Shown here: one piece after another, positions 915 to 64,000 of the stretch
Layout of the letters: every line of letters starts with the position of its first letter
Numbering within the stretch: position 1 is the stretch's first letter
DNA from: Amoebophrya sp. A120
Taxonomy: Eukaryota; Protista; Dinoflagellata
Assembly: GCA_905178155.1 (NCBI GenBank)
Contig: CAJINV010000012.1
Location: 1,112,004-1,176,003, forward strand
Reading direction: 5' to 3'
DNA: 64,000 nt
Position numbers and translations under genes: made by a program
The notes under the pieces: generated by a model
Told to the model about the DNA's origin: nothing
Databases searched by the model: none
Seen by the model: only the letters and a program-made list of their open reading frames with translations

Positions 915-3900
915 TCACTCCGAGAGCGGTGAGAGCGAGCCCCGTATCAAATGCAAAAATGTCTGGGTCTGGAAACTTGTGATGTTGGGTGGCGTATCAT
1001 GAGGAGGCCACAAGTGCTGGCTCGGCATGAGAAGTTTCTAAGCCTCTAGGTGTAGGTGTTGCCTATTCTGTTTCTGCATGACAAACTGCGTCTCTGCATG
1101 ACAGAAAAAAGGCGCGCTTGGGTAACGCGCATGACAGATTTGAGAGTCATGCCAGACAAGCATGACAAACATGCATTCTTCCAGACCCCGACATTTTTAC
1201 ACTTGATACCCCGTCCGCTGGTACTATCAAAGTGGTTTTCGGCAACCGGAAAGTCGTCTTCTTCCAGAGAGATCGTTCCCTCATCCACGCTCTGCATGTT
1301 CTGCTTCAATTTCGACCACAAACTGTTAAAGGTGTCCAGCGTCTGTGCCGCAACCGCCTGACTTGCGGCGGAGGAGGTCGAAGGGGCGGTAGAAGCTGGC
1401 AGCTGCGCGACCACGTTGTCCTTGTTTGGGTCCTCCTGCTGTGGTCCAGCACGACTCCGGGTCGTCGTGTTCACCGCTGTGCATGATCCACCAAGACGAC
1501 CTCCACCGCCCGCTATACTACTTCTTTGATGCGGCTCCGTGAAGGGCTGCAGTACCTGCGTCTCGTTGACGAAAACGGGCAGCCTATCCTGATCAAAAAC
1601 ATCCCCACAGCACCAAAGTCAAGATGGGAAATCTGCTTGACAAATCACACAGCTTTGGTTGTTTGGCATGACAAGTTTGATGTCTCTTAGTGTGATCCTG
1701 TTTAGCTAGCTCAGAAGCATTACAGATCTACCACAGCATGCTGATCCTAGCATCACAAATCCCAAAACACGAATAGAAAATGCTTCATCCCATAGGACTC
1801 CGCATGAGAAACTTTTTTGGCATGCAGAATTGCATGACAACTCTGGGGTGGGTATGTTTTTACTCAGAATACAGCCACAGGTCCTCCGGCGTCCGAACCC
1901 AGCCGCGCCGGTACTCGCAGCAGGCAATCACTTCCTTGATATCAACTGTAAAAGTGTCTGGGTCTGGAAGAATCCAACTTGTCATGCTGATTTTGGATTA
2001 TAAAAAAATCTGTAATTGCATGAGCAGCAAAGAGAGCCCAAGTTTTGCTACACGCAAAGAGCATTTGTCATGCGGTATAGGCATCAGGAAGCCCTCACAA
2101 AATCTGTGATGCTAGGGCATGCATCACAGACATCAGGAGTCATGCAAAATGTGCATGACAAACCTGGCAATCTTCCAGACCCAGACATTTTTACATTTGA
2201 TAATTGAACCGCGGCCCCAATTTGGACAAAAGCTTCGCGTGCAGGTTGCCAAATTCCGTGCGGTACGCGACCCCCTTTTCGTGGATTACTTCGTAAAACT
2301 ATCCTGCGTAAAAACGTCCCCACCCCAGAGTTGTCATGCAAATCTTCACGCCCAAAATGCTTGCCATGCGCAGCCCCACGAGGAGCATTTTATTAAGGTC
2401 GCGCCCGGAGGGCGATATTGGTAACCAAATGCGTGCGCGAAAATCTAACCAGCGCGAAGGCCCACCAACCTTTTTCTAACATCGCCGCGGCCCGCGCCGC
2501 GAAAGCGCGGCCCTGCGGGCCGCGCTTTCGCCGCGCAGCCGCCGCCAGAAACGAGAAAAAGCACCATTTATTTTTAGTTCCTAGATTCCCACTTCTTCTT
2601 CTTGGGNATGCAAAATGTGCATGACAAACCTGGCAATCTTCCAGACCCAGACATTTTTACATTTGATAATTGAACCGCGGCCCCAATTTGGACAAAAGCT
2701 TCGCGTGCAGGTTGCCAAATTCCGTGCGGTACGCGACCCCCTTTTCGTGGATTACTTCGTAAAACTATCCTGCGTAAAAACGTCCCCACCCCAGAGTTGT
2801 CATGCAAATCTTCACGCCCAAAATGCTTGCCATGCGCAGCCCCACGAGGAGCATTTTATTAAGGTCGCGCCCGGAGGGCGATATTGGTAACCAAATGCGT
2901 GCGCGAAAATCTAACCAGCGCGAAGGCCCACCAACCTTTTTCTAACATCGCCGCGGCCCGCGCCGCGAAAGCGCGGCCCTGCGGGCCGCGCTTTCGCCGC
3001 GCAGCCGCCGCCAGAAACGAGAAAAAGCACCATTTATTTTTAGTTCCTAGATTCCCACTTCTTCTTCTTGGGTCGCGGGCCGCAGTTGTGCTCGCGGCCC
3101 TTGGGCCGCGGGGAAGTGGTGGAGCCCGCGGCGGCCCGCAGGCTCCTGCGATAAGCATTGAAGGCGAAATCCGGTCTGCTATTGCGCAGCGGGGCATCCT
3201 TTCTAGCCCCCTGCATGACAAACTGGCCACCTGGCCAGGAAGGTATGTGGGCCGCGCTCTCATCATCTAACCAGGAAGCAAGGGCGCGCAAAAGAATGCG
3301 TTTTTTGGCGAGCAGAACACCATCGCGAGTAACATTATGCACGAGGGCACGCTGGCCAGGAAAAAAGCGCAAATTTCAAAAAGTTAATCAATTCGCGCCA
3401 TTTCCGGCAGCCCTTTTGGGCCACCCAGATCGAGCATTTCCAAGCGGGAGGAGGCTCACAATTTTGGACCTCATACAGGTCGAAAACCGTGAGGGGTGGA
3501 CACACCTCCACAGGCTTGATAATTGTGTTCTTGTCGTCCAATCCCGGTGGTACGAGGCTGCGGAAAATTTCGCGAACCCCTTTTGACCGGCAATTTCCAA
3601 GCGGCTTTTACTTTTTCAGCAAAAATTGTCATTTTCAATTTCCAAGCGGTTTCCGGGGACTGGACAAAATCGGTAAATTTTGTCGGCCGCTTCTATGCTG
3701 CGAAAAACTGCATTTTTTCAACGCTTTTTTTCAATTTCCAAGCGGCTGGAGCTGCCCGGACGTGACGCATTTTTCGCTACAAAACCCATCACACCATCGG
3801 CCCTTTCCAAAAATGCCACTATCTTTTTTCAGCTTCAGACCGGGCGGAGCTGCAAAAATGATCTTTTTTACCCTTTTCGCACTTGATAACTGCTGTTTTG

Positions 3901-6900
3901 GCTGCTTTCGGTAAAATTCCCAGAAATTCTGCCCGATTCGCTTTCTGAAGGCAAAACACACTTGATAATGCCCGCTTTTTCCACCGATTGCATACCCCCG
4001 AGTTCCTCCCATATGGCAACGGCAAAGCCTTCGCGCTGCGTTTGCGATGGATGAGCATCTCGCAAAGAGCGCTCGCTTGCGCACGCTTTGGTTACCAGAT
4101 GATGCTGTTTTGGGATTTGTCATGCTCGAATCAGCATAATGTAGTCGATTTGTGATGCGGTTGCTCCAGCTAAACAGGACTACCGTAAGAGCCCAAGTTT
4201 GTCATGCGCGACAGTCAAAGGTTGTGGATCATTTGTGTAGCAGATTCCCCCATCTTGAATGCTGTGGGGTGGGGAAGTAGTTTTTCCTCAGGATAAAAAC
4301 TGCAGCGACTCAATTTCGGACTTGACTTTCAGCTCCACCAGTTGCTGCATCAAAAGAAAAAACGCCCCCACCTCGGATGCTTCAAAAATTTGTGATGCAA
4401 AGTTTCCAAAATGAGATTTTTTTGTCTTGCATAAAAGGACTATGAATCTTTCTGATGCAGAATCTCGGCGAGTAAGGCGTCTTTTACACGACAGGCTCGG
4501 TTGCTGCTGGGCTCTAGCGCAACAGAAATTTTAGCTGTTCCGCATTGAAAATTTGTGATGCTGATATATGCAAGAAGACGGGGAATGTTTCGAGATGAAA
4601 GGTTTGCAAGACAAACTTGCCAAGCTCTGGGGTGAGGGCACTTTTCATTGTAATATGCTGTCGCTGCTGTTCCAAGAGGACGTGTTGTTGTACATCGAGG
4701 TCCACCTGGTCCGACCCGTGGCTGATTCCGTCTGGCTGCTCTGTTCGTGTACTACTACCGTCCTTGTGGAGTTCCTGCTTCTTCAAAAACAAAAGCTTCG
4801 TTTCCAGCTCTACCTCCCTCTGCGCGACCTTGGCCGCCTTGTCCTCCAAATGGAGCTGAAGTGCAGTTAATGCGGTTTCCTCGGAAATGGGCTCGGCGGA
4901 CTCGGTCCTATCACACAGAAAAAAGCTGGCAGGGCATATTTGTAATGCAAAAATAAATACACAAAAAAATCTGCATTGCATATCCGAAACAGCATGCTAT
5001 GGGGCCACCCATGGCAAGCGTTTCTGTGTATCTATTTTTGCATCACAAATATGCCCTGCCAGCTTTTTTCTCTGGGATAGGTCCCATCCTCCGCAAAAGC
5101 CTTGACGAACGCCGCGGCGTGGGCTGTATCAAATGCAAACATGTCTGGGTCTGGAAACTTGTGATGCCAAAATCTGGATGACTGAAACGCTTTCGAATGC
5201 AGCCAAGCATGACAAGTCCTTGCAAAGCTGTTTCATACGTAGCGCGCATGACAAACTGCGTTTTTGCATCACAACGAACGCCGTGCGTTTGCTAGTCATG
5301 CAATACAGATTTTCTTGGAATGTAGGGCCAGCATCACAACGAACGCTGTGCGTTTGCTAGTCATGCAATACAGATTTTCTTGGAATGTAGGGCCAGCATC
5401 ACAATTCCAGACCCAGACATATTTGCAATCCATAGGCTAAGGTCAGTTCAAATAAGTACGTTGGAAACGATCCATGATGTCGTGGTGCTTCATATTATGA
5501 AGAAAAGCCAGCCTATCAATCTCCATGTGGCCACAGGAACGGCGTCGTCAAACTCAAAGCATGTGAGGTCATCGAATAAATCACGCAATGGCATTTACAG
5601 GGAAAAAAGGTCCGTCTTCAGTCGACGCACCTCGCAGTCAGTTGTGCTGGGAAAATCGTATTTCTACCCCCGAACTACTAGACCTCTTCAATTCTAGGGA
5701 AGACGTGCAGCCTACGTAAAAAATGACATCATAGCATACCTCTCTTCTCCTTATCTGTCTTAAACGCCTGCACCTGCTCCCGCAGCAGGCGCAACTCATT
5801 ATCGCAAGGAAAAATCCCCCCTCCCCATATTGAAGAGGCAGGTTTTCGAAAATTTGCGTTGCTGATTTGAGGTCACAAATCACGTGTGTGTTGCAAGAAG
5901 ACAAGGGCAGCAGCTTCCGTCCCATTATGGAGCCAGTTTGTCATGCTGTTGAGCCAACATCGCGGACGCTTTTCATGCTAAGCGCCTAAGTCAAAGCCTC
6001 TCTATTCAGGCTTGATATGGGTCTGCAGTCCTCTCCAGCGATTTGCGTACTCAAATACTGCATCACAGATTTCGTTTTCGATATGGGGAGGGGGGATTTT
6101 TCTTTTTGATACTCATCCTCGTGTACCTTCCCCGCCTCCGCCCTCGCCTGCACTAGACCTTCGGCAAACGCAGCCCGCTATGGGGGTGTCAGGATTGAAC
6201 TCGGCAAAATCGAAAAACTTGTAATGCATAAAATGTAGGGCGCGCAAGGTCTGTGTTGGGGCGCAGGCAAATGAGACCGATTTCAAGCCTGTTTCGGGGA
6301 AACAAAGGCGATGCGCTGCCAGAGTAGCATGACAGAAGCAGTCTTCCTTGCCCAAACAGCACGACAGAGTGGACTTTGGTGCTCCCGAAATTTGTCATGC
6401 GCCACTTGGACACTGAGGCTCCAACTGGTATCGATTTTATGCATCACAAATCATTTCAACTTTGACGATTTCGATCTTGACACTTCCATACCCGCTCCTG
6501 CTCTAGTAATTGCTGTAAGTCCGTGTTTGCGGCCTTCAGCTTCGCGACATTATCAAATGCAAATATGTCTCGGTCTGGAAGGATCCGAACTTGTGATGCG
6601 TGTTTCGGATCCTTCAAAGATCTGTGATGCAGAACGTGCAGAAGATGTTGCCCCTTTCTGGCCATTCTCAGAGGGCATTTCTCATGCAGAATACGCATCA
6701 CCTCCAAGGAGCTGCAGAACCTGTGATGCTAGGCCCTGCATTCCAGACGTGGGGGAGCTTGAAAAAACTGCATGACAAAGACAAATCTCGGAATCTCCCA
6801 GACCCAGACTACATTTTTGCACTTGATAGACATGTTTCGCATGCAACTCGTCCAGCTGCGTCTGCATGATTCGGTTCTGAATGGACGCGTAGCTGACAGT

Positions 6901-49200: not shown

Positions 49201-52200
49201 CCCTGCGTTGCATCTTGCTTATCGCTACTGTGATCAGCACAAGGCGATCCGGTAGGGTCGTTGCCAATTCGCTTGCTCCGTCGAGGTCGTACAAACAAGC
49301 GCTCCGGTGCGTTCGCTAAAAACTGTCTTCCGATCGCGATCGGAAAAAATAGAGTCGGTGTGATTTCTGGTCCGAAAAATAATACAAATCGATAGCCATT
49401 CGGCAGCGTCTTAATGCAGAGAAAACTCGAAGAATCGTAGTCGAACGTGAGCGATTCATGCTGGCTGCTACAACATCGGTCTTTGCCGCAAAGGTAGTGT
49501 GGGTGGTAGTCAAATTTTAAAGATTAATTCTCATCGACAAGAGCGAATGCGTGTCACAAACTAGGGAGCGAAAGATCTATAAGCGAGCTACGGCGGGTGC
49601 TGTTCATGCTTTCCGCCTTTCTTCCCTTTCTCGCCCTTCGTCTTCCCGTCGCCCTTGCTGGCCTTTTTTCCCGCGCCTTTCTTCCCGGCGGGGGCGGGCG
49701 GGTTGGTCCACTGGGAGATGTCGACCGTGGCGTTGAAATTTTCCGTGTGGTACTTGGTGCTTGCGGGGTGGCCGCCATTATCACGCTCGCACTTGTCGCC
49801 CCATTTGCAGTACATCACGTCGTCGCTCCCGGGCAGGCGGAAGCCGCACAATCCGCCGCAGAACAGGGTGCAGATGGTGGCGTTCTTCCGGATCGTTTCC
49901 ACTTCCGTGCAGTACGCTGCCGCGAGGCCCGGCCGGGTGAAGGAGAGGGCGGCTGCGAAGCCGGTCTCCGTGCCCCTCCCCGCTCCCGGGGTATAACCTG
50001 TGGCTATTTTGTGAATACAGAAAGAGATGCGTGATTTTTAAGCGTAAACGGCCGTCAGTAGAAAATCTGCAAAAACATGTGCAAAAACTAGGAAAACGCC
50101 CCCGCGTATGTGATCGGGATCGATGGTTTCTAGGCGTAAACGGCTACCGAAATTGAACAGCAAACTACAAGGGAATAGCTAAAAAGCTGCACCAGTCGGC
50201 GCACCCGCCGCGGCGGCTGTGTGCGTGGCTGTCGGTGCTGCTGTGGCCGAAGCGCCACCAGTGGTAGCGGAGGTAGTGCTAGTGTTGGTCGATCCAGTCC
50301 AACCGCCACCACCCCCCGCACCTTTCGTCGTCGCCGCCTGCTTTGGGGCCGGTTTGCTGATCTGGTAACCAAAAGTCCCGTCCTTCTCCTGTACCTTGCG
50401 CAGCTCCGCATGTGCGGTTCTGTCGAACGGCCGGACATCATCAGCAAGGCCCGCAATGGCCTTGACAAACTCCTTGGTGGAAATTTGCGGACTATTCGCC
50501 TCCGTGGCTATGCAGAGTTCGGCGTAGAGCAGGATCAGGTGCGGGAGAGAGCAGTCGGATTTCTCCCCGGTGAACTTCTTCAGCGTCTTCTGGTCGCTGA
50601 GCCGCTGTCGCAGGCTCGTGTACTTGTCCAGTGCGCTGCTTTTCCAAAGAGACGTCCCGGCGAACGGGATAAGCAGGAACAGTTCCGGGAGGTTGTGCTT
50701 GCACAGGAGTTTGTTCACATTTGTCAAGTCGCCGTGCTGCACATCGGATCCATGCATGGTGCTGAAGGATCGGCATTCTTCGAAGATCTTCTTCACCAGC
50801 ACCTTGATCTCCAGAAATTTCACACCGGGGAAAAGTCGCTGCGTTTGCGCGTTCAGTGCGCCCCGGCCGATAAGGACCACCTGGTGGAATTCATCGATTG
50901 TTTTTGCGGTGCGCGGCCATCCGAAAGGAACGAGCAGGTCGGACTTGGAAACTTTCTTGCTGACGTTCGCGCAAAAGTCGTCGAAACTGGGCTCGTCGAA
51001 GAGGTTGCTCATCAGGCAGAGGACCATGTCCTGCACAAAGTTCGTCTTTTCCAGGGTGGAAACTTTGCTACTGTATCTGCCAAGCACACCCTGCGACAGG
51101 ATGGCGCCGCAGATTGGGTTCCCGAGGTCCTTGCCGACGTACGTAGTGCCCTTCCGGGCGCACTCCGCGGCTGCTTCGAACTCCGGCTGTACCTCTTCGC
51201 AGAGGAAGCAGAAAAACCTGCGTGCGTAAAACAAGAGATATTGTTGGGTGGAAGAACCGGAAATGCAAACGAGCTCATAAGTGGGTGGCCTGACAAATGT
51301 GTAGCATAGAGGAGACGGAGCAAAAGAAATATACGACGGGTTCGGGCGTCCCTTGTTGTTCACCAGCAGGCTGCCCCAATGCTTCAGCGGTGGGTTGTAT
51401 CCGGCTGGTGCCCTGGAGAAGTACTTGGTGAGGTAATCGTCGTCGTCTATCCACTGCTGTAGCCCTTCTTTCGAGCGCGGCTGGAAGTTCGAGCGCATGA
51501 CCTGGCCGGTACTCAGGTTGACCAGTGCGAAGGTCCCGGCGGATGCTGGTAGCTGCTGCTGCTGCTGCTGGGCCCCCGCCTGCTGCAGCATGCCGATGCC
51601 CTGGTATGACGCGTCCGCCAGGAGTCCCATGGGGTTTGCCTGGGCTGGCTCGGCGGCTGCTGTCACATCGGGTTTGACCGCGTTGGCTCGGCGGAGCTTC
51701 CGCAGCGCTAGACGGTCTGCTTGCGATTGGAGGCCACCTGGAGGACAAAAATTGCATCAATGAATTATATATCCAGGGAAGCTTACGCATACGCTGTGCT
51801 GTGAAATGCTAGCGCAGAAAAGACGAAATAGGAAGCACGTGTAACTGTGTACAGTTCTGCAACCCAAAGTGCTTCCCGCGCACCGCTCCTGAGGAGTCGG
51901 AAGATGCTCCGCCGCTGCTAGGCGGGGAGGCCACGCGCGCCCTTTTGTTTACGTTCTGCTGTGGTGAGGCGGGCATCGGTGGGTGTCCCATGATCGGCTG
52001 CGCGGCGCTGGTGTCCGTGTCGCCTCGCGCTTTCAAGTCTTCCTTCTTCTTCTTTACAAAGTCGTCCATGTGCTCGCGAGCTGCTTGCACTTCGTTCGCC
52101 GAACAGCTTTTGAACGGCCAGTCACGCGGAGCGGCGACTGGTTGCTGCTGCTGTGCTGCTTGCTGCAGGTTCTCGGGCTGCTGGGGCGGCGCCGAGGAGG

Positions 52201-55200
52201 AGGACGCGGCCGGAGCCGCTACTGTGGCATTAGCTTTCGCCTGTGCCACCTGGCGCTTCGCTTCCAGATCCGCGATGGGGTTGGAATCCAGTAACTGCTT
52301 GGCGAAGGCGGCGGTGAACGGGTGCAAATTTTCGAGGTTAAGCCTCCGGTCGTGGTGCAGCATCTTCAGCGCGATGTTGCAGCGCATGAACGTGAGCACG
52401 AGTCCGTAGGTTCCGACATCGGAGTAGTTGCCGCCGCAGAACTGGAAGGCCTGGCGGACCGGCGTTGGCCACTGTGCCAGGGCCCGCTCGAGTGGCGACC
52501 GGAACCACTTGTACATGATGATCACGGTGCGAACATGGTGGAAGATGTTCCCCAGCCCGCCTGGAAAGAGGGTGAGAAACTCGAAGACGTCGTCCTTGGT
52601 GTCGTTGGCAATCGAGCTGAGGCCGTCCGCGTGCGCCACAGTCGACAAAGCGAAAACGCCGTGCAGAATCTTGGCCAGGATGCTGCCAACTCCGTCCGGC
52701 TTCTTGGGGTCCATGCAGGACCGGTCGGCCCGCAGTTTCTGGGTGATTTCCGCGAAGATGGACTGTGGTCGTGTTTTCTAATCATCAATGCCAAATTAAT
52801 TCACGAGCACCCTGTTAGTGACCAAGTACTGCAGTTCTTCCGTTTACCATGCTGATCTTGCAGCAGCATCGTGCAAAGCTAATTTTCATGCATATCTTCC
52901 GCATGATCACACGGGTACAAAAATGTATAAGATGCGTAGGAATAAAACTGCAGTCGGGTAATCATCAAAGCCACGTACCTTGCTCTGCGCGCGCTTTGTC
53001 CACTTCGTGCTCGTGGGGTCCATCAGCTGCTGCTGCACTTCTTTGTACATTTCCTGCACCCGGGCCAGGTCGAAGGACTCGCCGGGCGGCACGATGTCAA
53101 AAGGGGCGAAGAGCTTGTTCTCCAGCACTGACTTAAGCGCGGCGAGTTGCTGCGCGTTTTCCTGTGCGGATTTTTGCAGCGCCAGCTGGCTCACGTCGCC
53201 GGGAAACAGTTTGCTGGGCGAGGGGTCGCCAATTCCGGGCAGGTTGGACCCGCCCCCGTGTGGGGAACCCGGCTGCGACGGCATCGTCTACGTAGTGCGT
53301 GTAAAACTGGTAGTACGCCTGGTGGAGGTCAGGCCGCGGAGCCAAAAACATTGGCGCGGCTGAGAACCATCGGTGATAAGATGGATCGAAATGGCTAGAA
53401 GTAGTAAAGGTAAGTATTCGAACTGCAACATGGGCACAGGTGTGCGCGGTATCTCTCGAGGCTGGGCGACGAGAGTACAACTACGCTCACGGGTGTCGCT
53501 CGCGGTGGACGAGAGTGAAGACGTGCGACCCGGTCGAAAAAACTCTCTCGATGACGGCAGAGGAACTGAAAAGTGATCTAACGACCCTGACCAAACCGAA
53601 GTAGAACAACAACTGGCGCAGTTCTAGCAGGTGCCAAAAGTGCTGCTGGTGCGGAGGGCGCGCGTCGTGAGCGCGCGGCGAGTACACGGAAAACCTACTG
53701 AGACAGTCTATGGAGTCGAACAACCGGACAAAACACAGTTCTAGCACGTGTAAAAAGTGCTGGAAAAGGGGAGGGAGGGGGGACAGGGTGCCAGGGGTGA
53801 ACACACGTGTGGCGGGAACACAAGGTAGGAGAACACACGGTGCTATGACTATGGGGGTGCGGAAGCACTGCCAAAGCCAGTAGCACTGGAGGGGAAAAAG
53901 AGATCATATGTCGCAAGGAATAAGGGAGAAAACCACGTGGCAAGAAGCTCAGCCTTCTGTGGGCTGGCTTAGTGGGTACAGCGCCCTAGCTGTCCCGAAT
54001 GAAACTTGCAGTGGGAGAATAGGTGCATGTGAGTAGTGCAGTGGAATAAAGTGCACGAGGTGTGTGGCACCAAGCGCAGACGGCCCCTGAGGTTTTTCAT
54101 CCATTAGACAGACAAGTGACAGCTACCACGAAGTGGTAACCCAACCGGTCAATGAGTCCTCGACTCTAAAGACACAGGCAGGTATCCATCGTCCCCTCCA
54201 GAACGAATGTCATAGCATGCACCAGATCACATCGGCAGTCCGCAGGGAGCGGACCGCAGAATCTAGACCCGGTGCGTGCTAAAGGATGCGACAAAATACA
54301 AAGTCACAAGAGTCTAAAGCCGGTGGTAGAAACAAAGAGAACAGGTAGAGACGAAATGAACGACGTTGGAGCAGTTTCCGCATGTGTATATTTATCTTAG
54401 CACTTTTGCATTGCATATCCGTATTTTTCCAACAACTTTTTCCGTTCCTGCTCCAACACGTACTGGCAGTTCGCCTCCACGATGTTCTGCGTATCAAATG
54501 CAAATATGTCTGGGTCCTCCAGAAGATTGCGAGATTTGTGATGCAGTTTTTCCAAGCTCCACCAAGTCTGGAATGCAGGGTCTAGCATCACAGGTACTGC
54601 AGCCCCTTGCCCTTGGCCGTGAACGTGATTCCTCCGTTGCATGAGAAATAACACCCTCCGAGCAGGCCCAGGAGACGTGGGCATCTCTTGTTCTTGCGAG
54701 TTATGAAATACAAGATTTTTGTATGCTCCGCAACACGCATCACAAGTTCGTATCCTTCCAGACCCAGACATAGTTGCAGTTGATACTGCACCTTCTTCCG
54801 CAATTTCACGGATCTGAAGTCCTTCAACGCAAACAGCCTTTTGTTCTCGTCCTTCACTCTTCTCAGCCTTTCCGCTATTCTCTTCTGCTTTTGCTTCTCC
54901 TCTAGAAGCTTCTCGTCCATGGTCAGCATCGATTGCCGGTTCTGCTCTTCGATGCGCAGCTTCAGTTGCGAAATTACTGCTTCCAAGTCCTTGTTCAGCT
55001 GCACGATTTTGTCGTGCTCTTCCAGCAGAACCGCGGTCTTCCGCGCGTCCGCCTTGTAGGAGTCTAGAACCACTACAACGTTGTCCATTTCTTCCTGCCA
55101 GGCGGTTCGCTGTTCGGTGTGCTTCACCCGCAACTTCCCCATCTGGGTCTCAATTTTTAGTTTCTCTTCGTTCAAAAATTCCATTTGCCGCCCCTTGTTC

Positions 55201-58200
55201 TGGATCTTTATCGTGAAGTCTTTCTCAATCTGGACGATCTTCTGCTTCTCTAGATCCACTTCAGATTATCAATTGCAAAAATGTCTGGGTCTGGAAGGAT
55301 GCAAGGTCTGTCATGCTTGTCTGACATGACTGAAGAGTTTGCGATGCGTGTCCAAGAAGAGACCCTCTTGCTTGTCATGCAAAACGCAGCTTGTCATGCG
55401 GAAAGCGCAACACGAAGCCGCGCAAAAATCTCTCATGTTGGCTGCGCATTACAGAAAATTCACCATTCAAAAATCAGCATTACAAGTTTCCAGACCCAGA
55501 CATATTTGCATTTCATACAGTTTCCTTCTGCTTCAAATCCGCGCTCCACTTCATGTGCTCCTTTTTGTATGACAGTGCACCGCTCCTCCTCCCCCTCATT
55601 TGTATAGCATGAACGGCAATACAAGCATCAGCAAGAATGCCGGTTTTGCATGACAAGTTTGCACTGGATTGTAGTTCTATTTGGACTACCAGAACTTGTC
55701 ATGCAAACAGTGCCAAGAAGCAAAGGGTGGATTCTGTATTTTGCATGACAAATGAGGGGGACACGGGGAGTTGTGCGCTGTCATATCTTGTACTCAAGCT
55801 TGAAAAACTCGTACTCGCTTTCGATTTGCTCCTTCTGTTCCTGCATGACTTGCTCGTTGTTTAGCGCTTTCCGGACTTTTAAGTTCAAACCGGTGACCAA
55901 ATCCTCGTGCTTTTGTCGGATTTCGTTCAAGATTAATTGGTGTTTGTTCTTCTCCTCCACCATGTCATGTTCGTATTTCTCATCTTTCTCCTTCACAACC
56001 TGCTGCAAATCTTCCACCTTTTCGTCCCGTTTTTCGGCCAGGTAGTCCTGCGACTCGATAAACTCTTGCAGCTCCTTCTTCAGGTCGTCCCTCTCGGTTG
56101 TCAAAGTTTTGATGATGCGGTCCAGCTCTTCCTTGTGCAGGTAGAGTTTCACGTAGTTCGCGTCTAAATCCTCGTACAAGAGATGTTCCCTCTCCCGGGT
56201 GAGAATCTTCTCGTTCGTCATCGTATCCACAGTATCCACATGATTTCTGTAGTCCTCCCAGATTTGCGAGTACAAGTCCTCCTTCCAGTGCGAGTCCCTC
56301 TCAAACTGCAACAGCTTCGCATCTTCGTAATTCTCTACTAACCTACGCCGCTGCGAGAGGATGTCCTCGATCTGGTAATTTTTCCTTTCCAGTTCGAGGA
56401 GCTTCTCCTCCTCGTTCGTTTGGATTAACCGATGTCGATGCGACAAGTAATCCTCGTAGCCCATGTTGAAGTTTTCGCGCGCGAGAACCAGTATTACAAT
56501 GAAAAATGCCCGCAGCACCCCCGAACTTGGCAGCGTTAGAACATGCAAACCTTTCCAATAGAAACACTCCCGTCTTGCATATATCAGCATCACAAATTTT
56601 CCATGCTGAATATCTCAAATCTGTGTTGCAAAGGAGCCCAGCAGTAGCCGGATCTGTCATGCAAAAGATACGTTCCGCAGCCAGATTCTGCATCAGCAAG
56701 GCTCGTAGTCCTTTCATGCATAGATAAAAAGTTCTTCGTTTGAAAACCTTATGCATGAGAAACTTTTGCAAAATCCGGGTTGAGGGCATTTTTCATTTTA
56801 ATAACCCGTCTTTCTTCTTTATCCATTTCAAAATTCTCCACCATCCGCACCTCCTATCCAACGGAAAAATCCCCCCTCCCCATATCGAAGTGGAAATCTG
56901 TGATGCAGGATTTGAGGTACCAAATCGAGTTGTCATGCTAGAAGGCCAAGAGCCGCAGTCGTGGTCTCGTTTGCAGGCAATTTGTCATGCTGTTTCCCAC
57001 TCTCAGCTGCCTCCTATCATGCTGAAGATGCAAGGCTCCCCCACGCCACCCAGCACTACAGTCCGCATCTTTTCCCGTGTAGCATGACAAAGCTGATTTG
57101 TGACAACAAATCTGCATCACAGATTTCCGTTTTGATATGGAGGGGGGGATTTTTCCTCTCAATACCTCCTGCGCGATCCCCTCTTCGATCAGCATGTTTT
57201 GTCGTTCGCGGTTCCATATCCAGTGCAAAAGCGTCCTGTCGTACTAGTATGAATTGCATCACAAATCTCCTCAGCATGAGTAATGCTGATTGTGATTTGC
57301 CATTAGATCGAGAATTGTAAAAATGCTTGACTGCGATTAGTACGAGTACGCTGCTTTTGCAGTGCATATTCCAGGCGACCTCCGTTGTCCAGCGGAGCTC
57401 CCATTTGACTTGCTGGTTTCGCTATTGAACAAAAAAGTTCATTTGGTAGCGGTAGCGATCTTACTACTCGCACTCGCGTTCTTGCAAGACAAACAGTCGC
57501 CGACATGCACGGTATGCAATACAAATTCCGGTCGTAGTTTTTGCCTTGCCGGACAGCAAGAGAAATTTCGCTAAAGCTAGAAAAACTTTATGTTGGTGTG
57601 ATATTCGCCAATCTTCCTTCATCATCTCTTGCTGTTCCCGGTTTCTTTCCAATTCCAGCATCGCTTTCTGCAACTCCTGGTCCAGAAACTCCGCTTCTTT
57701 CGTTTTCTGCTCGATCATCAACTGCAAATCTTGCTCCAAATCCACCGTTATCCAATGCAAAAGTATCGTACTCGTAGTTAGTAATTGCAAGCATGCAATA
57801 CAAATTAATATATTTATATAAGGCAAACTTTGGGGCCGGAGAGGGTCCGATAGAGGTTGGGGAGAGGTTTCGTAGAGGTTAGACAGAGGGTCGGAGAGGT
57901 AAAGTAGAGGGTCGACCAAAACAAGAGGGTCGGGGAGAGGTAAAGTGAGAGGGTACGGAGAGGGTCGGGAGAGGGTGCGCAGTATAGGGGACCGTATAGC
58001 GGCGCTATACGCCCGAAGAGGGTGCGTAGAGGTTGAGTAGAGGTCAAGTAGAGGGTAGGGGGAGAGGGTCGAGAGGGTCAGAGAGGTTCCACAGTATAGG
58101 GCGACCCTCTAAGCGACCCTCTATGTCGACCCTCTCCGGGAACCTCTTTTTTACCTCTCGGCGGACCCTCTCGGGACCTCTTGGACCCTCTCCCGGACCC

Positions 58201-61200
58201 TCTTCGCGACCCTCTCCGAACCTTTCCCGGACCCTCTCCGAACCTCTCCCGGACCCTCTCCGGGACCCTCTCCCGGACCCTCTACCAGAACCGCCCGCAC
58301 AGTGAAGCTCGCCCGTCTGCGCGCAGTGCCTGTGTCCTAGAGTAAGAATAAACAAAGCTAGGGCCTAAAAGTTCAGGCCTCCCCTGCAAGTTTTTCTTTT
58401 TTGACTCCAGGGCAGACCAGGGCGGCTGTTCAAAGTGCATGCGCCGCTCTGCGTCCCCCGGGGGGGGCGCGGCGCCACGCCTTAACGTAGGCGGCCACCT
58501 AGGGTGGCCGCAACTTCACACAGTGCCCGCGCGCGGGCAGCAGGTGTTGCGTCTTTGTAGCGGCGCGAAAGTGGTTGCGACTAAAGTAGCGACAGCTTTT
58601 CTCTGCCCGTTGTCTCTCGGCGCAAGCATAGCGCATTAGCCTTCGCAAGCACATGCAGGCCCCGCCGCGTGCTCGCTGCCTAACAGGATTCCAGCTCGCC
58701 ACCTTGTAGAAGCGGCACTCCCCCTGTTCAGGGTGCACCCCTGCAACCAACTCCCCTTCCAAGAAAGGCCAACAACCCCCGGCCCCGGGCGCTGCTTTTT
58801 TCGCCAACAAAGAACGCAGGCCGCGGAGGTATCGCTGCCTGCGTGTGTGCGCTGCGCTTTCTGGGCCAACCCCGTCAGACCGGCGCGGCCCCGCCTGCTT
58901 TTTTGGCTGTGCAGCGGCGCGCCACCCTTGGCATCGCCTTCCCCGTTGGAACACCTCCTCCGAACAGCCTCCCTCCCCGGCGGCCTCCGCCGGGGGGTGG
59001 CTGGTCTCTCTCTTAAGGCAAATCAGCATTACAAATTTCATTTCTCATGCTGAGCAAATTTGTAATGCATTTATACGAGTACGATACTTTTGCAATGCAT
59101 AACCGTGTTCGCCCGAAAACTCGTCATGGTGGCGTCCAAGGTTGTGTGCTGGTCGGTTAGCGTGGACAGTTGCTGATTCAACTCTTCGATCTCCTTCTGC
59201 TTCGCCTCTCGCAGATCCACCAGCTCCTGCTGCAGTTTTCCCTGTTCGTCTATTAATTGATTTTTCTCCGCTACAAGCGATTCCACTTCCGAGGTAAGCT
59301 TCTCCACCTGAAGAACCCCCTCGTCGTGCCGGGTCTGCATATGAACTGCAAAAGTATCGCACTCGTAGTAATTGCGGTCATGCATTACAAATTTTCTTTT
59401 TAAGGTAAATCCGCATCACAAATTCCATTTCGCATGCTGAGGAAATTCAAATAATTTGTAATGCATTTATACGAGTACGATGCTTTTGCATTTCATACTG
59501 CAGATCGGCGTGCAATTGCTGGAGATTTTCCAATTCCGCTTTGACGTTCTTGTTTTCGTTCTGAACGACGAGGGTGGTCGCGGACAAGAGTTCTTTTTCT
59601 TGGTTTAAATTTTCGATTTTTTCCTCCAAGTCGTTTTTTGTCTTCTCCAACTCCTCTTCAACTTTCTTTTTCTCTTCGATTAAGTTGTCCCTTTCCTTGG
59701 TGTATGAACTGCAAAAGCATCGCACTCGTATAAAAAATGCATTACCAATTTCCTCAGCATGAGAAATGCAATTTGTAATGCGGATTTACCTTAGCAAAAG
59801 GATTTGTAATGCATGATTGCAATACGAGTACGATACTTTTGCACAGGATATGGTGACGGCCTGTTCGCGCTTTTCCGCCTCTTCCTTCTCGCTTTTCGCC
59901 CTCTTCATTTCTGGCTCGAACTCCTCCCATTTTTTCTGCAGTTCCTCGTTCTTCTCCTTCAATTTCTCCACTTCCCCCTGCAGTTTTTCCGTCTGCTTCT
60001 CCGCCGCTTCCTTTTCCCGTATAAAAACCCGCTCAGGTGTCACTAATATCTCAAGCGTTACAATAGAATCTGGAAATCTGTGATACAAGAAGTGCATGAG
60101 CTAACCCGCTCACGCAGGATTGCGCATGACAAGTTTCGGAGCCCCAAACCGCACTGGAATCATCTGCCGGAATTTGTGTTGCAGAAAGTGGAACGCGCTG
60201 CCGCGATTCTGTCATGTACAGCATGCAAGACAAACTCCAGATTCTATTGTAACGTTTGAAAAAATTGTAACATCGGAGCAAGCCATATCCCGGACGGCGG
60301 TCTTTTTCTCGTCCTCGAGGGTTTTCAGTTCTTTATCCTTCTCTTTTATTTTCTCCTCCAGTTCGTCATTGGTTTTTTCCAACTTTTCTCGTTTCTCCAC
60401 GTGCTTTTGCACGTCTTCCTCCAATATCAAGTGCCAATATGTCTGGGTCTGGAAGAGTCATGCTGCTTTTGCATGACAGCGAAGGTCTGGCATGGAAGCT
60501 CTAGCATCACAGATTTCGAGAAGCTTCCGCAATGCCGACTCCGCATGACAAATGCCCCATTTTGGTGACAAGAAGCGGGCAGCTTTTGCTGCCTATGCAT
60601 GAGAGATTTTTTTATGTGTTGTGAAATGCGCATCACAAGTTTGCATTTTTCCAGACCCAGACATATTTGCGATGCATATCCAAATCCGTGATTTTTCGCT
60701 CTAAATCCTTTTGCACCTTCTCCGCCTCCTTTGCAACTTTCTCTGCAGCGTCTTTTTCCTTTTTCATTTCGGCCATTTCTTCCTTGTTTTTCTTCTTCTC
60801 CTCCTTCATCTCCTCGACCTCCTTTTCTTGCTTTATGCAGAGCAAAAGAGTGCTGTGCTGTGTAAGCGTACTTAACATGCAGAAGCAGATGGTGCAGGTG
60901 CACATCAACAGCGCAGTAAATAATTTTGTCTGAATGTTGAAAGGTGCTATGCTCAGCGACAGAGAGATGTCTGTTCAGACTGACACGCAGTATTCGGCAC
61001 AAGAACATCATTCAATACGCGATTATTTTTAAGCACTTCTCTTTCACTCTGGATACTTTTTTCCATTTTGTCATTTGCCTTTTTCAAATCGTCCTCCGCA
61101 TTTTCCTTTTCCGTCTGCAGATTGTCCTTGTCTTTCTTGAGCTGCTTTATCAAATGCAAATATGTCTGGGTCTGGAAACTTGTGATGCTAAAATGTGGAT

Positions 61201-64000
61201 GATGGAAACAGTTGCGAATGCAACCCACCATGACAATTTTCCAGAACGCTTGTTTCTCATAGGCAATCCGCATGAGAAACTGCGTTTCTGCATGTACAAA
61301 AGAGGTTACGCAATACAGATTTTCTAGGTATGGAAAGCTAGCATTACAAGTTCCAACCTTCCAGACCCAGACATATTTGCAATCCATATGCTTGATCTCT
61401 TTTTCATTTTCCTCGTTCTCCTCTTTCAGCTCGTCTTTTTTCTTCGTCACCTCCTCCAGCTGCCCGCTCAGCTTCTCCGCCCGGGCCGCCTCGCGCTCCT
61501 TGTCGTCTTTGTTGTTGTCGTTTTCCTCGGTGAGCTTGTCGTGGTCTTTTTTCAAAGCGTTCAAATCTTTCTCTAATTGGTCGCGCTCGTCGTCCAACTT
61601 GTCGCTTTTCTCGCTCAGCTCCTTCACCTCGTTTTCCAATTTCTCGACCTTCTTATCCCCGTCTTCCTTCGCGTCCTTCAATTTGTCCCTTTCCTCCGAC
61701 AAATCCGAAACTTGCTTCTTCAAACTCTCTGCCTCCTTTTCAAACCCATCCTTTTCGTCATCGAGCTTGTCCGCTTTTTGCGTCAGTTCGGTGACTTCCT
61801 TGGTCAGCTTTTCCACCTGTTTGTCCGCATCTTCTTTCTCGTCCGTGAGTTTTTCCTTGTCGGTTTTCAGCGTATCAACCTCCTTCTCCAGCTGCTCGGT
61901 TTTCTTTTCAAATTCTTCCTTTGCGTTGTCCAATTTGTCGGATTTTTCCGTCAACTCAGCGACCTCCTTCTCCAATTTTTCTGCTTTCTTTTCCGCGTCT
62001 TCCTTTTCATCTGTGAGCTTTTCCTTATCGGTCTGCAGCGAATCTTTGTCCTTTTCCAGGGTTTCGACCTGCTTCTCGAACTGCTCCTTTTCGTTTTGGA
62101 GTTGATCCTTCGTCTTTGTTAGCTCTTCGATCTCCTTTTCCTGCTTTTCTCCCTTCTCGACCGCGTCCTTCTTTTCATCGGTGAGTTTTTCCTTCTCCGT
62201 GTTGGCGGTATCCAGGGTTTTCTCCAGTTCCTCTATTCTCTTCTCGCCCTGTTCTATCCCACAAAAAAAGTGTTACAGTTACACATTTGATGTAACTTCA
62301 GCATCACAAGTTTTCTCCGCATGACAGAGAAAACTTGCAATGCAAAGATCATAAGGGAAAACAGGAACGAAACGAGGCTCCAAAGCGTTTCCTGCTCTCG
62401 CATGAGAAAGGTTGTCTGTGTTGCCAGTTTTGCAACACAATGTGTAACTGTAACACTTTCTTCCTCCCATATGTTCCTTCTCCGCCTTTAGCCCGTCTTT
62501 CTCGGAGTTGGCTTCCTCGAGCTCCTTCTCCAATTTACTGACTTTCTCCTCCCCGTCTTGCTGCAGGGCGGAAAGCTTTTCTTTTTCGTTCTCCAGCTCC
62601 TCCTTCGCTTTCCCCAGCTCTTCCACCTTTCCCTCGGCGGCCTGCTTCTCCCCTTGCAGCCCATCCCGCTCGGACTCCAGCTCTTCTTTCGACTTTTCTA
62701 ATTCCGTATCAAATGCAAATATGTCTGGGTCTTGAAGAGTCGGAGTTTGTCATGCACATGTTGCATGACGCGTGAGGTCTGTGATGCAGGTCCTAGCATC
62801 ACAGATTCTTTGACGGCTTCTTGATGCTTATCACGCATGAGAAATGGCTTCTCCGCGTGCCAAGAACTGGACCCCTCTTGCTGCTCATGTTGCAACACAG
62901 ATACTTTTAGAATCCGTAGACAGCATTACAAGTTCCACCCTTCCAGACCCAGACATATTTGCATTTCATATTCCGCCAGTTTTTCCTCCGCGGTGGTCTT
63001 CTCAGCGAGCAAGGCTTCTTTCTCTGCTTCCAATGCCTGCTTCGCAGTTTCGGTTATAACCCGCTCAGGTGTTACAATCTCAAACGTTACAAGCAAGTCC
63101 GGAATTTGTGTTGCAAAATGCGCAACATCTGGCCTACTCCCACAGGAGCGCGCATGACAAGTTTCGGAGAGCCAACCCCGATGAGAATCTGGCGAAATTT
63201 GTATTGCGAAAAGCCCAAGTCTCTGTATGGCACTCATGCTGTTTATGCAAGACAAATTGCAGACTCTATTGTAACGTTTGAGATTGTAACATCTGAGACA
63301 GACATATCGGTTTCCTCCGCTTTCTGGTCCGCGGCGGTTTTTTATGAGACTGCCCAACTCCTCCTCCCCCTCATTTGTATGGGATGAACGGCAATGCAAG
63401 CGTCAGCAAGAATGGCGGTTTTGCATCACAAATCTGCACAGCCACAGGAAACTTGTCCTATTTGGACTGCGAGATGAACTTGTCATGCAAACATTGCCAA
63501 GAGGCACAGTGTGGATATGGGATTTTGCACGACAAATGAGGGGGAGAACGAGGGGGGTTGTGCTCTCTCATACTTTTTCCCCCTGCAACCCATCCCTTTC
63601 CGATTCGAGTTCTTCCTTATCAAATGCAAAAATGTCTGGGTCTGCAAACTTGTCATGCTAAAGCTGCATGATAGACGCACTGCAGTACACAGCTATGCAT
63701 GACAAATATTTTGGCTGTCATGTCTTACGTATTCCGCATGGCAAACTGCGTTTTTGCATGACAGGTAAAAGGGCTTTCTCGTGCCTATGCAACACACAGA
63801 TTCTCGAATCATGCCAGACAAGCATGACAAACTTGCATTCTTCCAGACCCAGACACTTTTACAGTTGATATTCCTTCTGCTTCTCCAATTCCGCGACCTT
63901 CTCTTCCGCGGCCGTTTTCTCTGCGGTCAGACCCTCTTTCTCGGATTCCACCGCTTCCAATTTCTTCTCCGCCGCTTCCTTTTCGCCCTTCAGACTATGT
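43252..64000 (-). CDS. Long E/K-rich coiled-coil protein (5' end outside window); 19 introners; last intron ~11 kb
   Basis: Heptad-rich exons; the junctions I translated join in frame by the 5-bp rule; terminal join LLEKYG|ITDAETAGGDAY* (stop at 43252). Confidence 0.85.
44493..46182 (-). CDS. Tyrosine recombinase of the retroelement (2 introns)
   Basis: TSGLR (Arg), DVK (Lys), YGIRRG (HxxR position), FLW, ERDY (Tyr); intron 44988-45105 joins ELNM|VHLP in frame. Confidence 0.8.
46383..48732 (-). CDS. Reverse transcriptase plus RNase H (DIRS-type; 1 intron)
   Basis: RT motifs DDLFQAYFQ, LNFG, YVDD; RNase H motifs SDAS, YEILA, CDN, NPADATTR; intron 48115-48232. Confidence 0.9.
49588..53284 (-). 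CDS. Gag-like ORF1 with C-terminal Cys/His cluster and basic tail (4 introns)
   Basis: Four ORF pieces joined by GT-AG introns; CTLFCGGLC...CKWGDKCERDNGGH; lies upstream of RT. Confidence 0.65.
54492..54785. mobile_element. Introner family A
   Basis: TIR; TSD CTGCG/CTGCA. Confidence 0.9.
55267..55517. mobile_element. Introner family A
   Basis: TIR; TSD CAGAT/CAGTT. Confidence 0.9.
55568..55785. mobile_element. Introner family F
   Basis: TIR; TSD TTTTG/TCTTG. Confidence 0.9.
56492..56803. mobile_element. Introner family H
   Basis: TIR TATTACAATGAAAAATGCCC; TSD ACCAG/ACCCG. Confidence 0.9.
56855..57164. mobile_element. Introner family C
   Basis: TIR; TSD CCTCC/CCTCC. Confidence 0.9.
57217..57368. 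mobile_element. Introner family D
   Basis: TIR; TSD TTCCA/TTCCA. Confidence 0.9.
57749..59101. mobile_element. Introner family D with a nested ~1.2-kb insertion
   Basis: TSD ACCGT/ACCGT; insert flanked by TAAGGCAAA direct repeats. Confidence 0.85.
59340..59497. mobile_element. Introner family D
   Basis: TIR; TSD CTGCA/CTGCA. Confidence 0.9.
59703..59850. mobile_element. Introner family D (opposite orientation to 59340)
   Basis: TIR; TSD TGGTG/TGGTG. Confidence 0.9.
60020..60287. mobile_element. Introner family G
   Basis: Imperfect TIR; TSD TCCCG/TCCCG. Confidence 0.9.
60425..60678. mobile_element. Introner family A
   Basis: TIR; TSD TCCAA/TCCAA. Confidence 0.9.
60834..61055. mobile_element. 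Old introner with eroded TSD
   Basis: Imperfect TIR; removing element plus 5 nt restores ME-K-QEKE. Confidence 0.7.
61148..61388. mobile_element. Introner family A
   Basis: TIR; TSD TGCTT/TGCTT. Confidence 0.9.
62255..62471. mobile_element. Introner (AAAGTGTTACAGTTACACATT TIR)
   Basis: TIR; TSD TGTTC/TGTTC. Confidence 0.9.
62707..62970. mobile_element. Introner family A
   Basis: TIR; TSD TTCCG/TTCCG. Confidence 0.9.
63055..63306. mobile_element. Introner family G
   Basis: TSD TCGGT/TCGGT. Confidence 0.9.
63343..63572. mobile_element. Introner family F
   Basis: TIR; TSD TTTTT/CTTTT. Confidence 0.9.
63618..63870. mobile_element. Introner family A
   Basis: TIR; TSD TTCCT/TTCCT. Confidence 0.9.

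What the first reader, a model, noticed from the sequence alone, without database searches (positions are those of the whole stretch)
945..63870. One grammar for about 50 non-canonical introner introns: TAT...ATA ends plus an exact 5-bp stagger
Seen: at least 8 families with otherwise dissimilar TIRs begin TAT and end ATA, flanked by a 5-bp TSD of unconstrained sequence. Removing the element plus 5 nt restores the frame at the junctions I translated, including conserved PKA-R motifs and cases where the TSD has eroded (60834, 35307, 33679). Most cannot be given GT-AG ends; 59703 has no G in its sense-strand TSD (CACCA). Established: IR/DR-flanked non-canonical introners were reported in Amoebophrya (Farhat et al. 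2021), with mechanism and mobilising enzyme unresolved as far as I know. Inference: a single transposase lineage with a 5-bp TSD and TAT termini, which I cannot match to a familiar superfamily, paired with splice sites measured from a terminal RNA hairpin.
Basis: partly seen in the sequence, partly recalled or inferred. Interest (0 to 1): 0.82.

Follow-up and report, generated by a model that had tools for sequence, protein, structure and literature searches.

The report
One cut rule for Amoebophrya introners
These are about 50 copies of already-described jumping introns in the marine parasite Amoebophrya, and transcripts show them removed with exactly five extra bases, the informative junctions all fitting one cut position one base before the element's TAT start, which likely turns their seemingly random splice sites into a single testable rule.

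Summary
The window is Amoebophrya sp. A120. It holds 51 TAT...ATA elements: 35 with an exact 5-bp TSD, in 8 multi-copy clusters plus singletons. The elements, their TAT start and their direct repeats are published (Farhat 2021), and one family is listed as '5-bp TSD, TA/TA termini, Ginger' (Gozashti 2025 supplement). Not found in print is the cut rule. All 15 listed transcript joints, and 20 of 24 junctions checked against annotated proteins, remove element+5 nt. Eroded TSDs pin one register: intron = N-TAT...ATA-NNNN (RNA: 60834 exact, 55568 bound; proteins: 35307 exact, 16069 and 17316 bounds). The donor's +2 U is the element's first base; +1 and the acceptor are free (1 of 51 is GT-AG). The rule also appears to hold across an 11.1-kb intron carrying a retrotransposon (25-nt evidence). 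Likely mechanism: a relaxed U2-type spliceosome counting from terminal motifs, with TIR pairing choosing partners. No lariat data and no transposase found. The long elements are nested cargo, not autonomous copies. RNA support comes from one sample.

The parts
945..1208 (-). introner, exact TSD
   Evidence: protein P0017 fits element+5
1585..1871 (-). introner, exact TSD
   Evidence: P0017
1940..2202 (-). introner, TSD mismatch at sense position 5
   Evidence: annotation skips the adjacent exon, no clean test
2300..4295 (-). 2.0-kb TAT...ATA element, exact TSD, spans an N gap and an assembly duplication; uncertain
   Evidence: not RNA-tested
4348..4655 (-). introner with CAT at the + strand left end (sense end ATG), exact TSD
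   Evidence: P0017
4909..5079 (-). introner, exact TSD
   Evidence: P0017
5127..5434 (-). introner inserted on the acceptor of a canonical GT-AG intron, TSD mismatch at position 1
   Evidence: no exon-exon fit
5800..6111 (-). introner, exact TSD
   Evidence: P0017
6179..6490 (-). introner, exact TSD
   Evidence: P0017
6551..6828 (-). introner, exact TSD
   Evidence: P0017
6900..7168 (-). introner, exact TSD
   Evidence: P0017
7250..7558 (-). introner, exact TSD
   Evidence: P0017
14923..15288 (-). introner, sense start TAC, TSD mismatch at position 2
   Evidence: P0016
15739..16001 (-). introner, exact TSD
   Evidence: P0016
16069..16337 (-). introner, mismatch at position 5; limits k to 4 or less
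   Evidence: P0016
16494..16877 (-). introner, exact TSD
   Evidence: P0016
17316..17659 (-). introner whose direct repeat is displaced by 3 nt; the cut follows the element ends, k at least 4
20259..20538 (-). introner, mismatch at position 1
   Evidence: DNA only
20791..21001 (-). introner, exact TSD
   Evidence: DNA only
22123..22367 (-). introner, exact TSD; GT-AG possible only at k=1
   Evidence: DNA only
22414..22724 (-). introner, exact TSD
   Evidence: DNA only
27230..27357 (-). short candidate, 2 TSD mismatches; uncertain
   Evidence: DNA only
32292..35590 (-). host gene: PKA regulatory subunit (approximate span)
   Evidence: P0002, an exon matches it at 100%, PF00027
32740..33006 (-). 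introner, exact TSD
   Evidence: P0002
33082..33315 (-). introner, exact TSD
   Evidence: P0002
33679..34160 (-). outer introner, 2 TSD mismatches, contains 33836-34142
   Evidence: P0002
33836..34142 (-). introner nested in another introner, exact TSD
34200..34345 (-). introner, exact TSD
   Evidence: P0002
34941..35235 (-). introner, exact TSD
   Evidence: P0002
35307..35530 (-). introner, all 5 TSD positions differ; only k=4 fits
   Evidence: P0002
40945..41213 (-). introner in a second cNMP-binding gene, mismatch at position 3
   Evidence: DNA only
43296..54417 (-). 11,122-bp element: a ~164-bp introner split by a retrotransposon; exact TSD; appears spliced as one 11,127-nt intron
   Evidence: 25-nt loose end in X1 and X2 equal to 43266-43290, unique in the window
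43444..54402 (-). nested retrotransposon with split direct repeats (43444-43722 / 43908-44186; 43797-43908 / 54291-54402) and an RT ORF at 46383-48314; DIRS/PAT-like by layout
   Evidence: Pfam RVT_1 E=0.0019, below cut-off; Atlas RT clusters 0.95; tyrosine recombinase by eye only
45391..45634 (-). introner inside a gene of the nested retrotransposon, exact TSD
   Evidence: splicing inferred from piece arithmetic of an X1 contig
54492..54785 (-). introner, mismatch at position 1; k 1-5
   Evidence: RNA joint, skip 299
55267..55517 (-). introner, mismatch at position 2; k 2-5
   Evidence: RNA joint, skip 256
55568..55785 (-). introner, mismatch at position 4; k 4-5
   Evidence: RNA joint, skip 223, both=1
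56492..56803 (-). introner, mismatch at position 2; k 2-6
   Evidence: RNA joint, skip 317
56855..57164 (-). introner, exact TSD; the only GT-AG at k=4
   Evidence: RNA joint, skip 315
57217..57368 (-). introner, exact TSD
   Evidence: RNA joint, skip 157
57423..57603 (-). introner, weak TIR, exact TSD
   Evidence: RNA joint, skip 186
57749..59101 (-). 1,353-bp element: short introner with a 1,186-bp insert (57828-59013) flanked by a 9-bp repeat
   Evidence: RNA joint, skip 1358
59340..59497 (-). introner, exact TSD
   Evidence: RNA joint, skip 163
59703..59850 (-). introner, sense TSD CACCA; AT-CC at k=4
   Evidence: RNA joint, skip 153
60020..60287 (-). introner whose outer TIR bases are out of register, exact TSD
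   Evidence: RNA joint, skip 273; fold
60425..60678 (-). introner, exact TSD
   Evidence: RNA joint, skip 259
60830..61056 (-). exactly placed intron around element 60834-61055: last base of the 5' TSD copy + element + 4 bases of the 3' copy (k=4)
   Evidence: RNA joint 60829 to 61057, both=0, X1 and X2
61148..61388 (-). introner, exact TSD
   Evidence: RNA joint, skip 246
62255..62471 (-). introner, exact TSD
   Evidence: DNA only
62707..62970 (-). introner, exact TSD
   Evidence: RNA joint, skip 269
63055..63306 (-). introner, exact TSD
   Evidence: DNA only
63343..63572 (-). introner, mismatch at position 5 (an open test of k=4)
   Evidence: DNA only
63618..63870 (-). introner, exact TSD
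   Evidence: DNA only

Best explanation
These are non-coding TAT...ATA elements with 5-bp target duplications that transcripts lose together with five extra bases, at a register the informative junctions place one base before TAT and four bases after ATA; they are likely mobilised by one family of cut-and-paste transposase and likely removed by a relaxed U2-type spliceosome that counts from the element ends. Steps: (1) Shown: 5-bp TSD, TAT-N7-AAAA ends, both orientations. (2) Inferred: one transposase family binds the shared subterminal GCATGACA-type repeats and cuts with a 5-bp stagger at unconstrained targets; an integrase-like (Ginger/TDD-type) enzyme is the leading candidate, about 0.4. 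(3) Shown: element+5 is removed, so the exon is restored whatever the target. (4) Shown at 2 junctions exactly and bounded at 3 more: intron = N-TAT...ATA-NNNN. (5) Inferred: TAT supplies +2 to +4 of the host's own GTAT-type donor, so only +1 varies; the acceptor is set by distance from the terminal ATA (candidate branch A at -7 or -5), not by AG; TIR pairing picks the matching ends, which would explain correct joining across 11 kb and around nested elements.
For: Element+5: 15 of 15 listed RNA joints; 20 of 24 protein junctions, only d=5 of 0-9. Register: 60829 to 61057 with both=0 gives k=4; 55562 to 55786 with both=1 gives k 4-5; three more joints allow 1-5, 2-5 and 2-6. P0002 fits only k=4 at 35307; P0016 gives k<=4 at 16069 and k>=4 at 17316. 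At k=4 donors are AT 20, GT 13, CT 10, TT 8, with 14 different acceptors. Three of the four canonical introns in the PKA-R gene start GTAT and one GTAC. The offset does not follow stem extension. Subterminal motif: 16.2 per kb in elements against 0.73 per kb outside; TGTCATGC-type peaks in decile 2 and GCATGACA-type in decile 9. Both orientations occur within families in minus-strand genes. Farhat finds nearly all spliceosomal proteins and U2, U4, U5, U6 in A120. Polarella class 12 uses the same geometry but needs NNAGG.
Against: No lariat, branch-point or snRNP data. Farhat did not detect U1. The sense 3' end resembles a branch consensus only in part of the elements (positions 4-6 vary). X1 and X2 are one sample, are contigs, and are only guessed to be RNA by the tool; the annotated proteins probably rest on overlapping RNA, so they are not an independent data set. 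Only 2 junctions fix k exactly. All genes tested lie on the minus strand of one window. At 5127 the annotated mRNA joins 3 nt after ATA at an AG; this fits the rule only if the introner is removed first. The 11-kb join rests on 25 nt, under the tool's 31-nt bridging threshold. No transposase was found. Gozashti lists a Mutator-like A120 family with 8-9-bp TSD.
Confidence: 0.6

Rival explanations
1. Same elements and same register, but removal is by a non-spliceosomal or separate machinery that recognises the terminal RNA stem with 1-nt and 4-nt overhangs.
For: Terminal stems are predicted (z -0.89, -2.77, -6.03). +1 and both acceptor bases are free. U1 was not detected. Matching ends are joined over 11 kb, past an internal element. 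Euglenid introns with TIR stems leave as circles (review section).
Against: The offset is constant while the stem extends 0-4 pairs outward and in-register pairing of the first 12 nt ranges from 6 to 12. At 35307 the cut lies inside the predicted stem. TAT matches +2 to +4 of the host's canonical donors. The 60834 fold is no better than shuffles.
Confidence: 0.25
2. The TAT families are moved by several unrelated enzymes, or by an RNA route, and share ends only because splicing selects for TAT...ATA.
For: 8 clusters and 11 singletons with unalignable bodies. Gozashti classifies A120 families as TIR, non-LTR or unknown, with automated TSDs of 2-6 or 11 nt. Farhat argues against general transposase mobilisation because none was found in A120.
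Against: One TSD length, one terminal consensus and one subterminal motif in 456 of 463 elements. The mobile unit (element) differs from the spliced unit (element+5) and inserts both ways. In this window the long elements owe their coding content to nested inserts, which could produce such mixed labels.
Confidence: 0.15
3. The joins are reverse-transcriptase template switches at short direct repeats beside a hairpin; the elements stay in mRNA.
For: Direct repeats plus a stem are the classic setting for this artefact (recalled). No direct-RNA reads were available.
Against: 60834 is joined with zero shared letters and 35307 with no TSD left. Element lengths are not multiples of 3 in 36 of 51, so retention would break genes such as PKA-R, whose spliced product aligns with intact relatives.
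Confidence: 0.02
4. The elements are excised from DNA (ciliate IES-like), and the contigs read excised DNA.
For: TA-containing ends and a precise footprint; the kind of X1/X2 is a guess. The X5 joint table was truncated, so a minor excised DNA form is not excluded.
Against: X1 contigs also lack canonical GT-AG introns in a stretch that an X5 contig spans unbroken (44157-54320), and X5 contigs run from exon into element. The 4+1 split of the two TSD copies is not what simple DNA excision leaving one copy predicts.
Confidence: 0.02

Closest known systems
Amoebophrya A120 introner elements (Farhat et al. 2021, PMC7789003)
   Same: Same strain and elements: IR starting TAT + 7 variable + at least 3 A, direct repeats, non-canonical splice sites, about 240 nt, many families.
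   Different: The paper gives DRs of 3-5 nt varying in length and position, and splice sites 'variable' relative to the hairpin, with the border 'unknown'. Here one TSD length and one register fit all informative junctions. The subterminal motif string and nesting are not in its main text.
Amoebophrya A120 introner family 38 (Gozashti et al. 2025, PMC12130899, supplement file 8)
   Same: [quoted passage not shown]
   Different: Noted for 1 of 58 families; 56 are left with superfamily unknown. No common grammar or register is stated in the passages and rows I saw.
Polarella glacialis class 12 introner-like elements (Roy et al., bioRxiv 10.1101/2020.10.14.339549)
   Same: 5-nt TSD; 5' site made of the last TSD base plus the first element base; 3' site from TSD positions 3-4.
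   Different: Needs an NNAGG or NAGGH target and so stays GC/GT-AG. In Amoebophrya the target is free; in the related assembly only 6 of 220 would be GT-AG.
Ginger2/TDD-4, TDD-5 transposons (Bao et al. 2010, PMC2836005)
   Same: TIR DNA transposons with integrase-like enzymes; TDD-4/5 make 5-bp TSDs.
   Different: Ginger ends are TGTNR and most make 4-bp TSDs; these end in TAT. No enzyme was found here.
Euglenid nonconventional introns and Fritillaria borealis non-canonical introns (review PMC11282704; PMC13326754)
   Same: TE-derived, TIR and TSD-like ends, non-GT-AG.
   Different: Fritillaria keeps preferred dinucleotides and uses a modified U2 spliceosome; euglenid introns leave as circles by an unknown route. 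Which path Amoebophrya uses is untested.

Membership tests
Amoebophrya A120 introner elements | host is strain A120 | tested here: met
   three exons match proteins labelled Amoebophrya sp. A120 at 100%
Amoebophrya A120 introner elements | IR starting TAT, 7 variable bases, then at least 3 A | tested here: met
   terminal consensus of 926 ends against paper section 11
Amoebophrya A120 introner elements | 3-5-nt direct repeats at the boundaries | tested here: met
   5 bp
Amoebophrya A120 introner elements | spliced, with non-canonical sites | tested here: met
MITE / non-autonomous TIR DNA transposon | TIRs, fixed-length TSD, short, multicopy, both orientations | tested here: met
MITE / non-autonomous TIR DNA transposon | autonomous partner with the same ends | tested here: inconclusive
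   none in the window or in 734 kb of a related assembly; whole genome not held
Ginger1/Ginger2 | TGTNR termini | tested here: not met
   TAT ends
Ginger1/Ginger2 | 4-bp TSD (5 bp in TDD-4/5) | tested here: inconclusive
   5 bp: unlike most Gingers, like TDD-4/5
Ginger1/Ginger2 | integrase-type DDE transposase | not testable with these tools
   no coding copy available; fam38 sequence not obtained
U2-type spliceosomal intron | GT-AG (or GC-AG, AT-AC) ends | tested here: not met
   at k=4: 1 GT-AG and 2 AT-AC of 51
U2-type spliceosomal intron | U at donor +2 | tested here: met
   follows from k=4 for all 51; fixed exactly at 60834 and 35307; partly circular, because the list was selected on TAT
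U2-type spliceosomal intron | lariat with a 2'-5' branch, snRNP dependence | not testable with these tools
   only contigs available for this strain
Polarella class 12 ILE | 5-nt TSD with 4+1 splice geometry | tested here: met
Polarella class 12 ILE | NNAGG or NAGGH target | tested here: not met
Euglenid nonconventional intron | excision as full-length circles, no lariat | not testable with these tools
   no raw reads of this strain
DIRS/PAT-like retrotransposon (nested insert 43444-54402) | RT plus split direct repeats | tested here: met
DIRS/PAT-like retrotransposon (nested insert 43444-54402) | tyrosine recombinase | tested here: inconclusive
   motifs by eye only; no hit on single exons in Pfam, PHROGs, Atlas or PDB

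The most novel reading that the evidence does not exclude
Amoebophrya has a splicing machine that needs neither G at +1 nor AG at the 3' end. It reads a transposon's TAT...ATA ends, pairs them even 11 kb apart, and cuts at fixed offsets that exactly cancel a 5-bp target duplication. A single, still unnamed integrase-like transposase family and this machine together make any insertion site harmless, and the tens of thousands of 'signature-less' introns collapse to one rule, NT...NN.
Probability: 0.45. Interest if true: 0.85.

Novelty: already known. Interest (0 to 1): 0.6.

Why it matters
The elements are published, but the source paper left the splice borders unknown and called them variable, and later catalogues gave mixed TSD lengths and classes. 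If the k=4 register holds genome-wide, the 29,850 repeated A120 introns get exact ends. That tells where to look for branch points and which snRNA or protein contacts remain (only +2 to +4), and it separates a relaxed spliceosome from a new nuclease-ligase route. It would be a case where any 5-bp target is tolerated, unlike introners that must land on AG/GT. It also corrects gene models: the annotated protein P0018 starts after the 1.36-kb intron and reads into the 11-kb one.

Tried and rejected
1) The 11.1-kb TAT...ATA element as the autonomous transposon: rejected. It is a ~164-bp introner (121 of 164 positions identical to 59340 and to 34200) split by an RT-bearing element with split direct repeats. 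2) The 1.35-kb and 2.0-kb elements: no long clean ORF; the first is nested cargo. 3) Transposase hunt in the related assembly: 14 long TAT/ATA/TSD pairs, several probably two separate elements by chance; an integrase-motif regex over ORFs >=100 aa gave 2 isolated motif hits that were not followed up; Pfam on 100 of 157 ORFs >=250 aa (window ORFs and low-complexity ones dropped) gave 0 transposase or integrase hits. Only 734 kb, so not evidence of absence. 4) Published donor counts (fam2: 6,681 of 9,716 NT, 392 TA; Farhat Table S4: nine NT-xx sites) look supportive, but 6,598 of 9,716 acceptors are also AN, the mirror register. They are probably aligner-driven and are not counted as support. 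5) Drift of old elements towards GT: 17 of 72 mismatched against 72 of 220 exact have G at +1 in the relative: no support. 6) A fixed -7 branch point in the host's canonical introns: not evident in the six examined. 7) Raw RNA run X7 is another strain: 20 reads laid, all only partly on the stretch; uninformative. No run on record as RNA holds the stretch. 8) The whole genome is not held and the related contigs are not searchable as genomes. 9) Earlier scan findings: none. 10) Junction peptides at mismatched TSDs in the relative were listed but not tested against homologues.
Full report
Observation. An unbiased scan of inverted-repeat pairs shows that only TAT-ended pairs carry a flanking direct repeat, and only of 5 bp: 26 of 145, none at 6-10 bp, against 3 of 342 for the next trinucleotide. 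Terminal-profile and alignment scans plus inspection gave 51 elements between 945 and 63870: 35 exact TSDs, 11 with one mismatch, 5 more eroded. This list is selected on TAT...ATA. The 48 short ones form 8 multi-member clusters and 11 singletons, and three small families plus the largest occur in both orientations. All genes checked are on the minus strand. A pattern scan returned 134 loci (734 kb) of a related assembly, where 352 of 675 TAT pairs have an exact 5-bp TSD; among 456 curated elements 332 are exact, TSD base use is flat, and length classes modulo 3 are even.

Identity. Three exons match database proteins labelled Amoebophrya sp. A120 at 100%. Farhat 2021 (abstract, sections 10, 11 and 16, passages, supplement passages) already describes these elements: IRs starting TAT plus seven variable bases plus at least three A, DRs of 3-5 nt, a 5-bp example, U1 undetected, no transposase in A120, splice position 'variable' and 'unknown'. 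Gozashti 2025 (passages, and all 58 A120 rows of supplement file 8) lists fam38 as Ginger with '5-bp TSD, TA/TA Termini', fam65 as Mutator with 8-9-bp TSD, and 56 families with superfamily unknown.

Splicing. Contigs of runs X1 and X2 (one sample; RNA is the tool's guess, but an X1 contig lacks canonical GT-AG introns where an X5 contig is unbroken) were laid on 54300-64000. All 15 listed joints skip element+5 (3 more not shown), including the 1,353-bp element and 59703, which has no G in its TSD. Against three annotated proteins, 20 of 24 elements fit only d=5 among d=0-9. The four misses are a nested element (33836), two beside an exon the annotation skips near an assembly gap (1940, 2300), and one sitting on the acceptor of a canonical intron (5127).

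Register. Let k be the number of TSD bases kept from the upstream copy. The joint 60829 to 61057 has no shared letters and gives k=4 in both runs; 55568 gives 4-5; 54492, 55267 and 56492 give 1-5, 2-5 and 2-6. The PKA-R protein fits only k=4 at 35307, where all five TSD bases differ; 16069 gives k<=4 and 17316 gives k>=4. At 17316 the direct repeat is displaced by 3 nt and the cut follows the element ends, not the repeat. So the intron is N-TAT...ATA-NNNN. Donors are then AT 20, GT 13, CT 10, TT 8, with 14 acceptor types; one of 51 is GT-AG, and only two could be in any register. Caveats: one RNA sample, annotation probably from overlapping RNA, two exact pins, one strand.

Long elements. It is instead a short introner split by a retrotransposon with split direct repeats and an RT ORF (the recombinase label is by eye). 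A contig in each of X1 and X2 ends with 25 letters before 54418 that match 43266-43290 uniquely, so the 11,127 nt appear to be removed by the same rule; this is under the tool's 31-letter bridging threshold. Only 15 nt of the element remain at the donor end. An introner within the insert (45391) is also removed, by piece arithmetic. The annotated protein P0018 misses both long introns.

Mechanism, mobility. One TSD length, one terminal consensus, and a GCATGACA-type motif in 456 of 463 elements at 16.2 per kb against 0.73 outside, with one orientation peaking near each end, are what a single transposase family with subterminal binding sites would leave (inference). The mobile unit differs from the spliced unit, which argues against reverse splicing. 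The enzyme was not found. Ginger membership fails on termini; TDD-4/5 share the 5-bp TSD (passages). An integrase-like enzyme is the best lead, at about 0.4.

Mechanism, splicing. TAT equals +2 to +4 of the host's own donors (three GTAT and one GTAC in the PKA-R gene), and most spliceosome parts are present. The geometry is that of Polarella class 12, which needs NNAGG (passages); here no such selection is seen (6 of 220). The offset is constant while the predicted stem extends 0-4 pairs beyond the ends, and at 35307 the cut lies inside the predicted stem. I therefore read sequence as setting the register and pairing as choosing partners, with a relaxed U2-type spliceosome (0.6) ahead of a separate hairpin-directed machine (0.25). 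Neither is tested. Fritillaria offers a precedent for the first (abstract and one section) and euglenids for the second (review section 6).

Novelty. The system is known. I found no statement of a fixed register, a uniform 5-bp TSD across families, or the subterminal motif in eight searches of the open library and the parts of papers read. Subscription papers are not covered, and supplementary figures are images I could not see. Verdict: real, already-described elements with an apparently new and directly testable cut rule; interest 0.6.

Noticed in passing
window 43444-54402: An RT-bearing retrotransposon with split direct repeats sits inside an introner, is itself transcribed and spliced in X1, and carries an introner and canonical introns: three nesting levels.
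   Followed up: partly
window 57828-59013; L036 11267-12068: A 1,186-bp GC-rich non-coding insert with a 9-bp flanking repeat inside an introner; an 88% copy over 817 nt lies in the related assembly. A TIR element of 1,186 bp is listed under fam103 in Gozashti's table; identity not tested.
   Followed up: partly
window 32500-32617, 34398-34563, 34725-34881: Three canonical GT-AG introns of the PKA-R gene carry the introner subterminal motif (2, 5 and 2 copies) and start GTAT: possibly aged introners.
   Followed up: partly
window 5122-5740: An introner inserted on the acceptor of a canonical intron; the mRNA could arise by ordered two-step removal or by use of the AG in the downstream TSD copy.
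   Followed up: partly
related loci L001-L134: TSD mismatches by sense position are 19, 19, 8, 7, 15 among 60 elements: positions 3-4, the last two intron bases, differ least. Strand was inferred from codon use, so this is a lead only.
   Followed up: no
window 22900-31500: A region of long near-identical repeats (for example 25290-26200 and 28440-29350) with ORFs of 551 and 354 aa that have no Pfam hit; perhaps another mobile element or an assembly effect.
   Followed up: partly
window 2203-3070: A 466-bp duplication across a single N, which probably explains why the annotated protein P0017 skips an exon.
   Followed up: partly
window 40600-42560: A second cNMP-binding (PKA-R-like) gene about 5 kb from the first.
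   Followed up: no
window 37970-39800: Two similar GC-rich ~900-bp units in tandem, unexplained.
   Followed up: no
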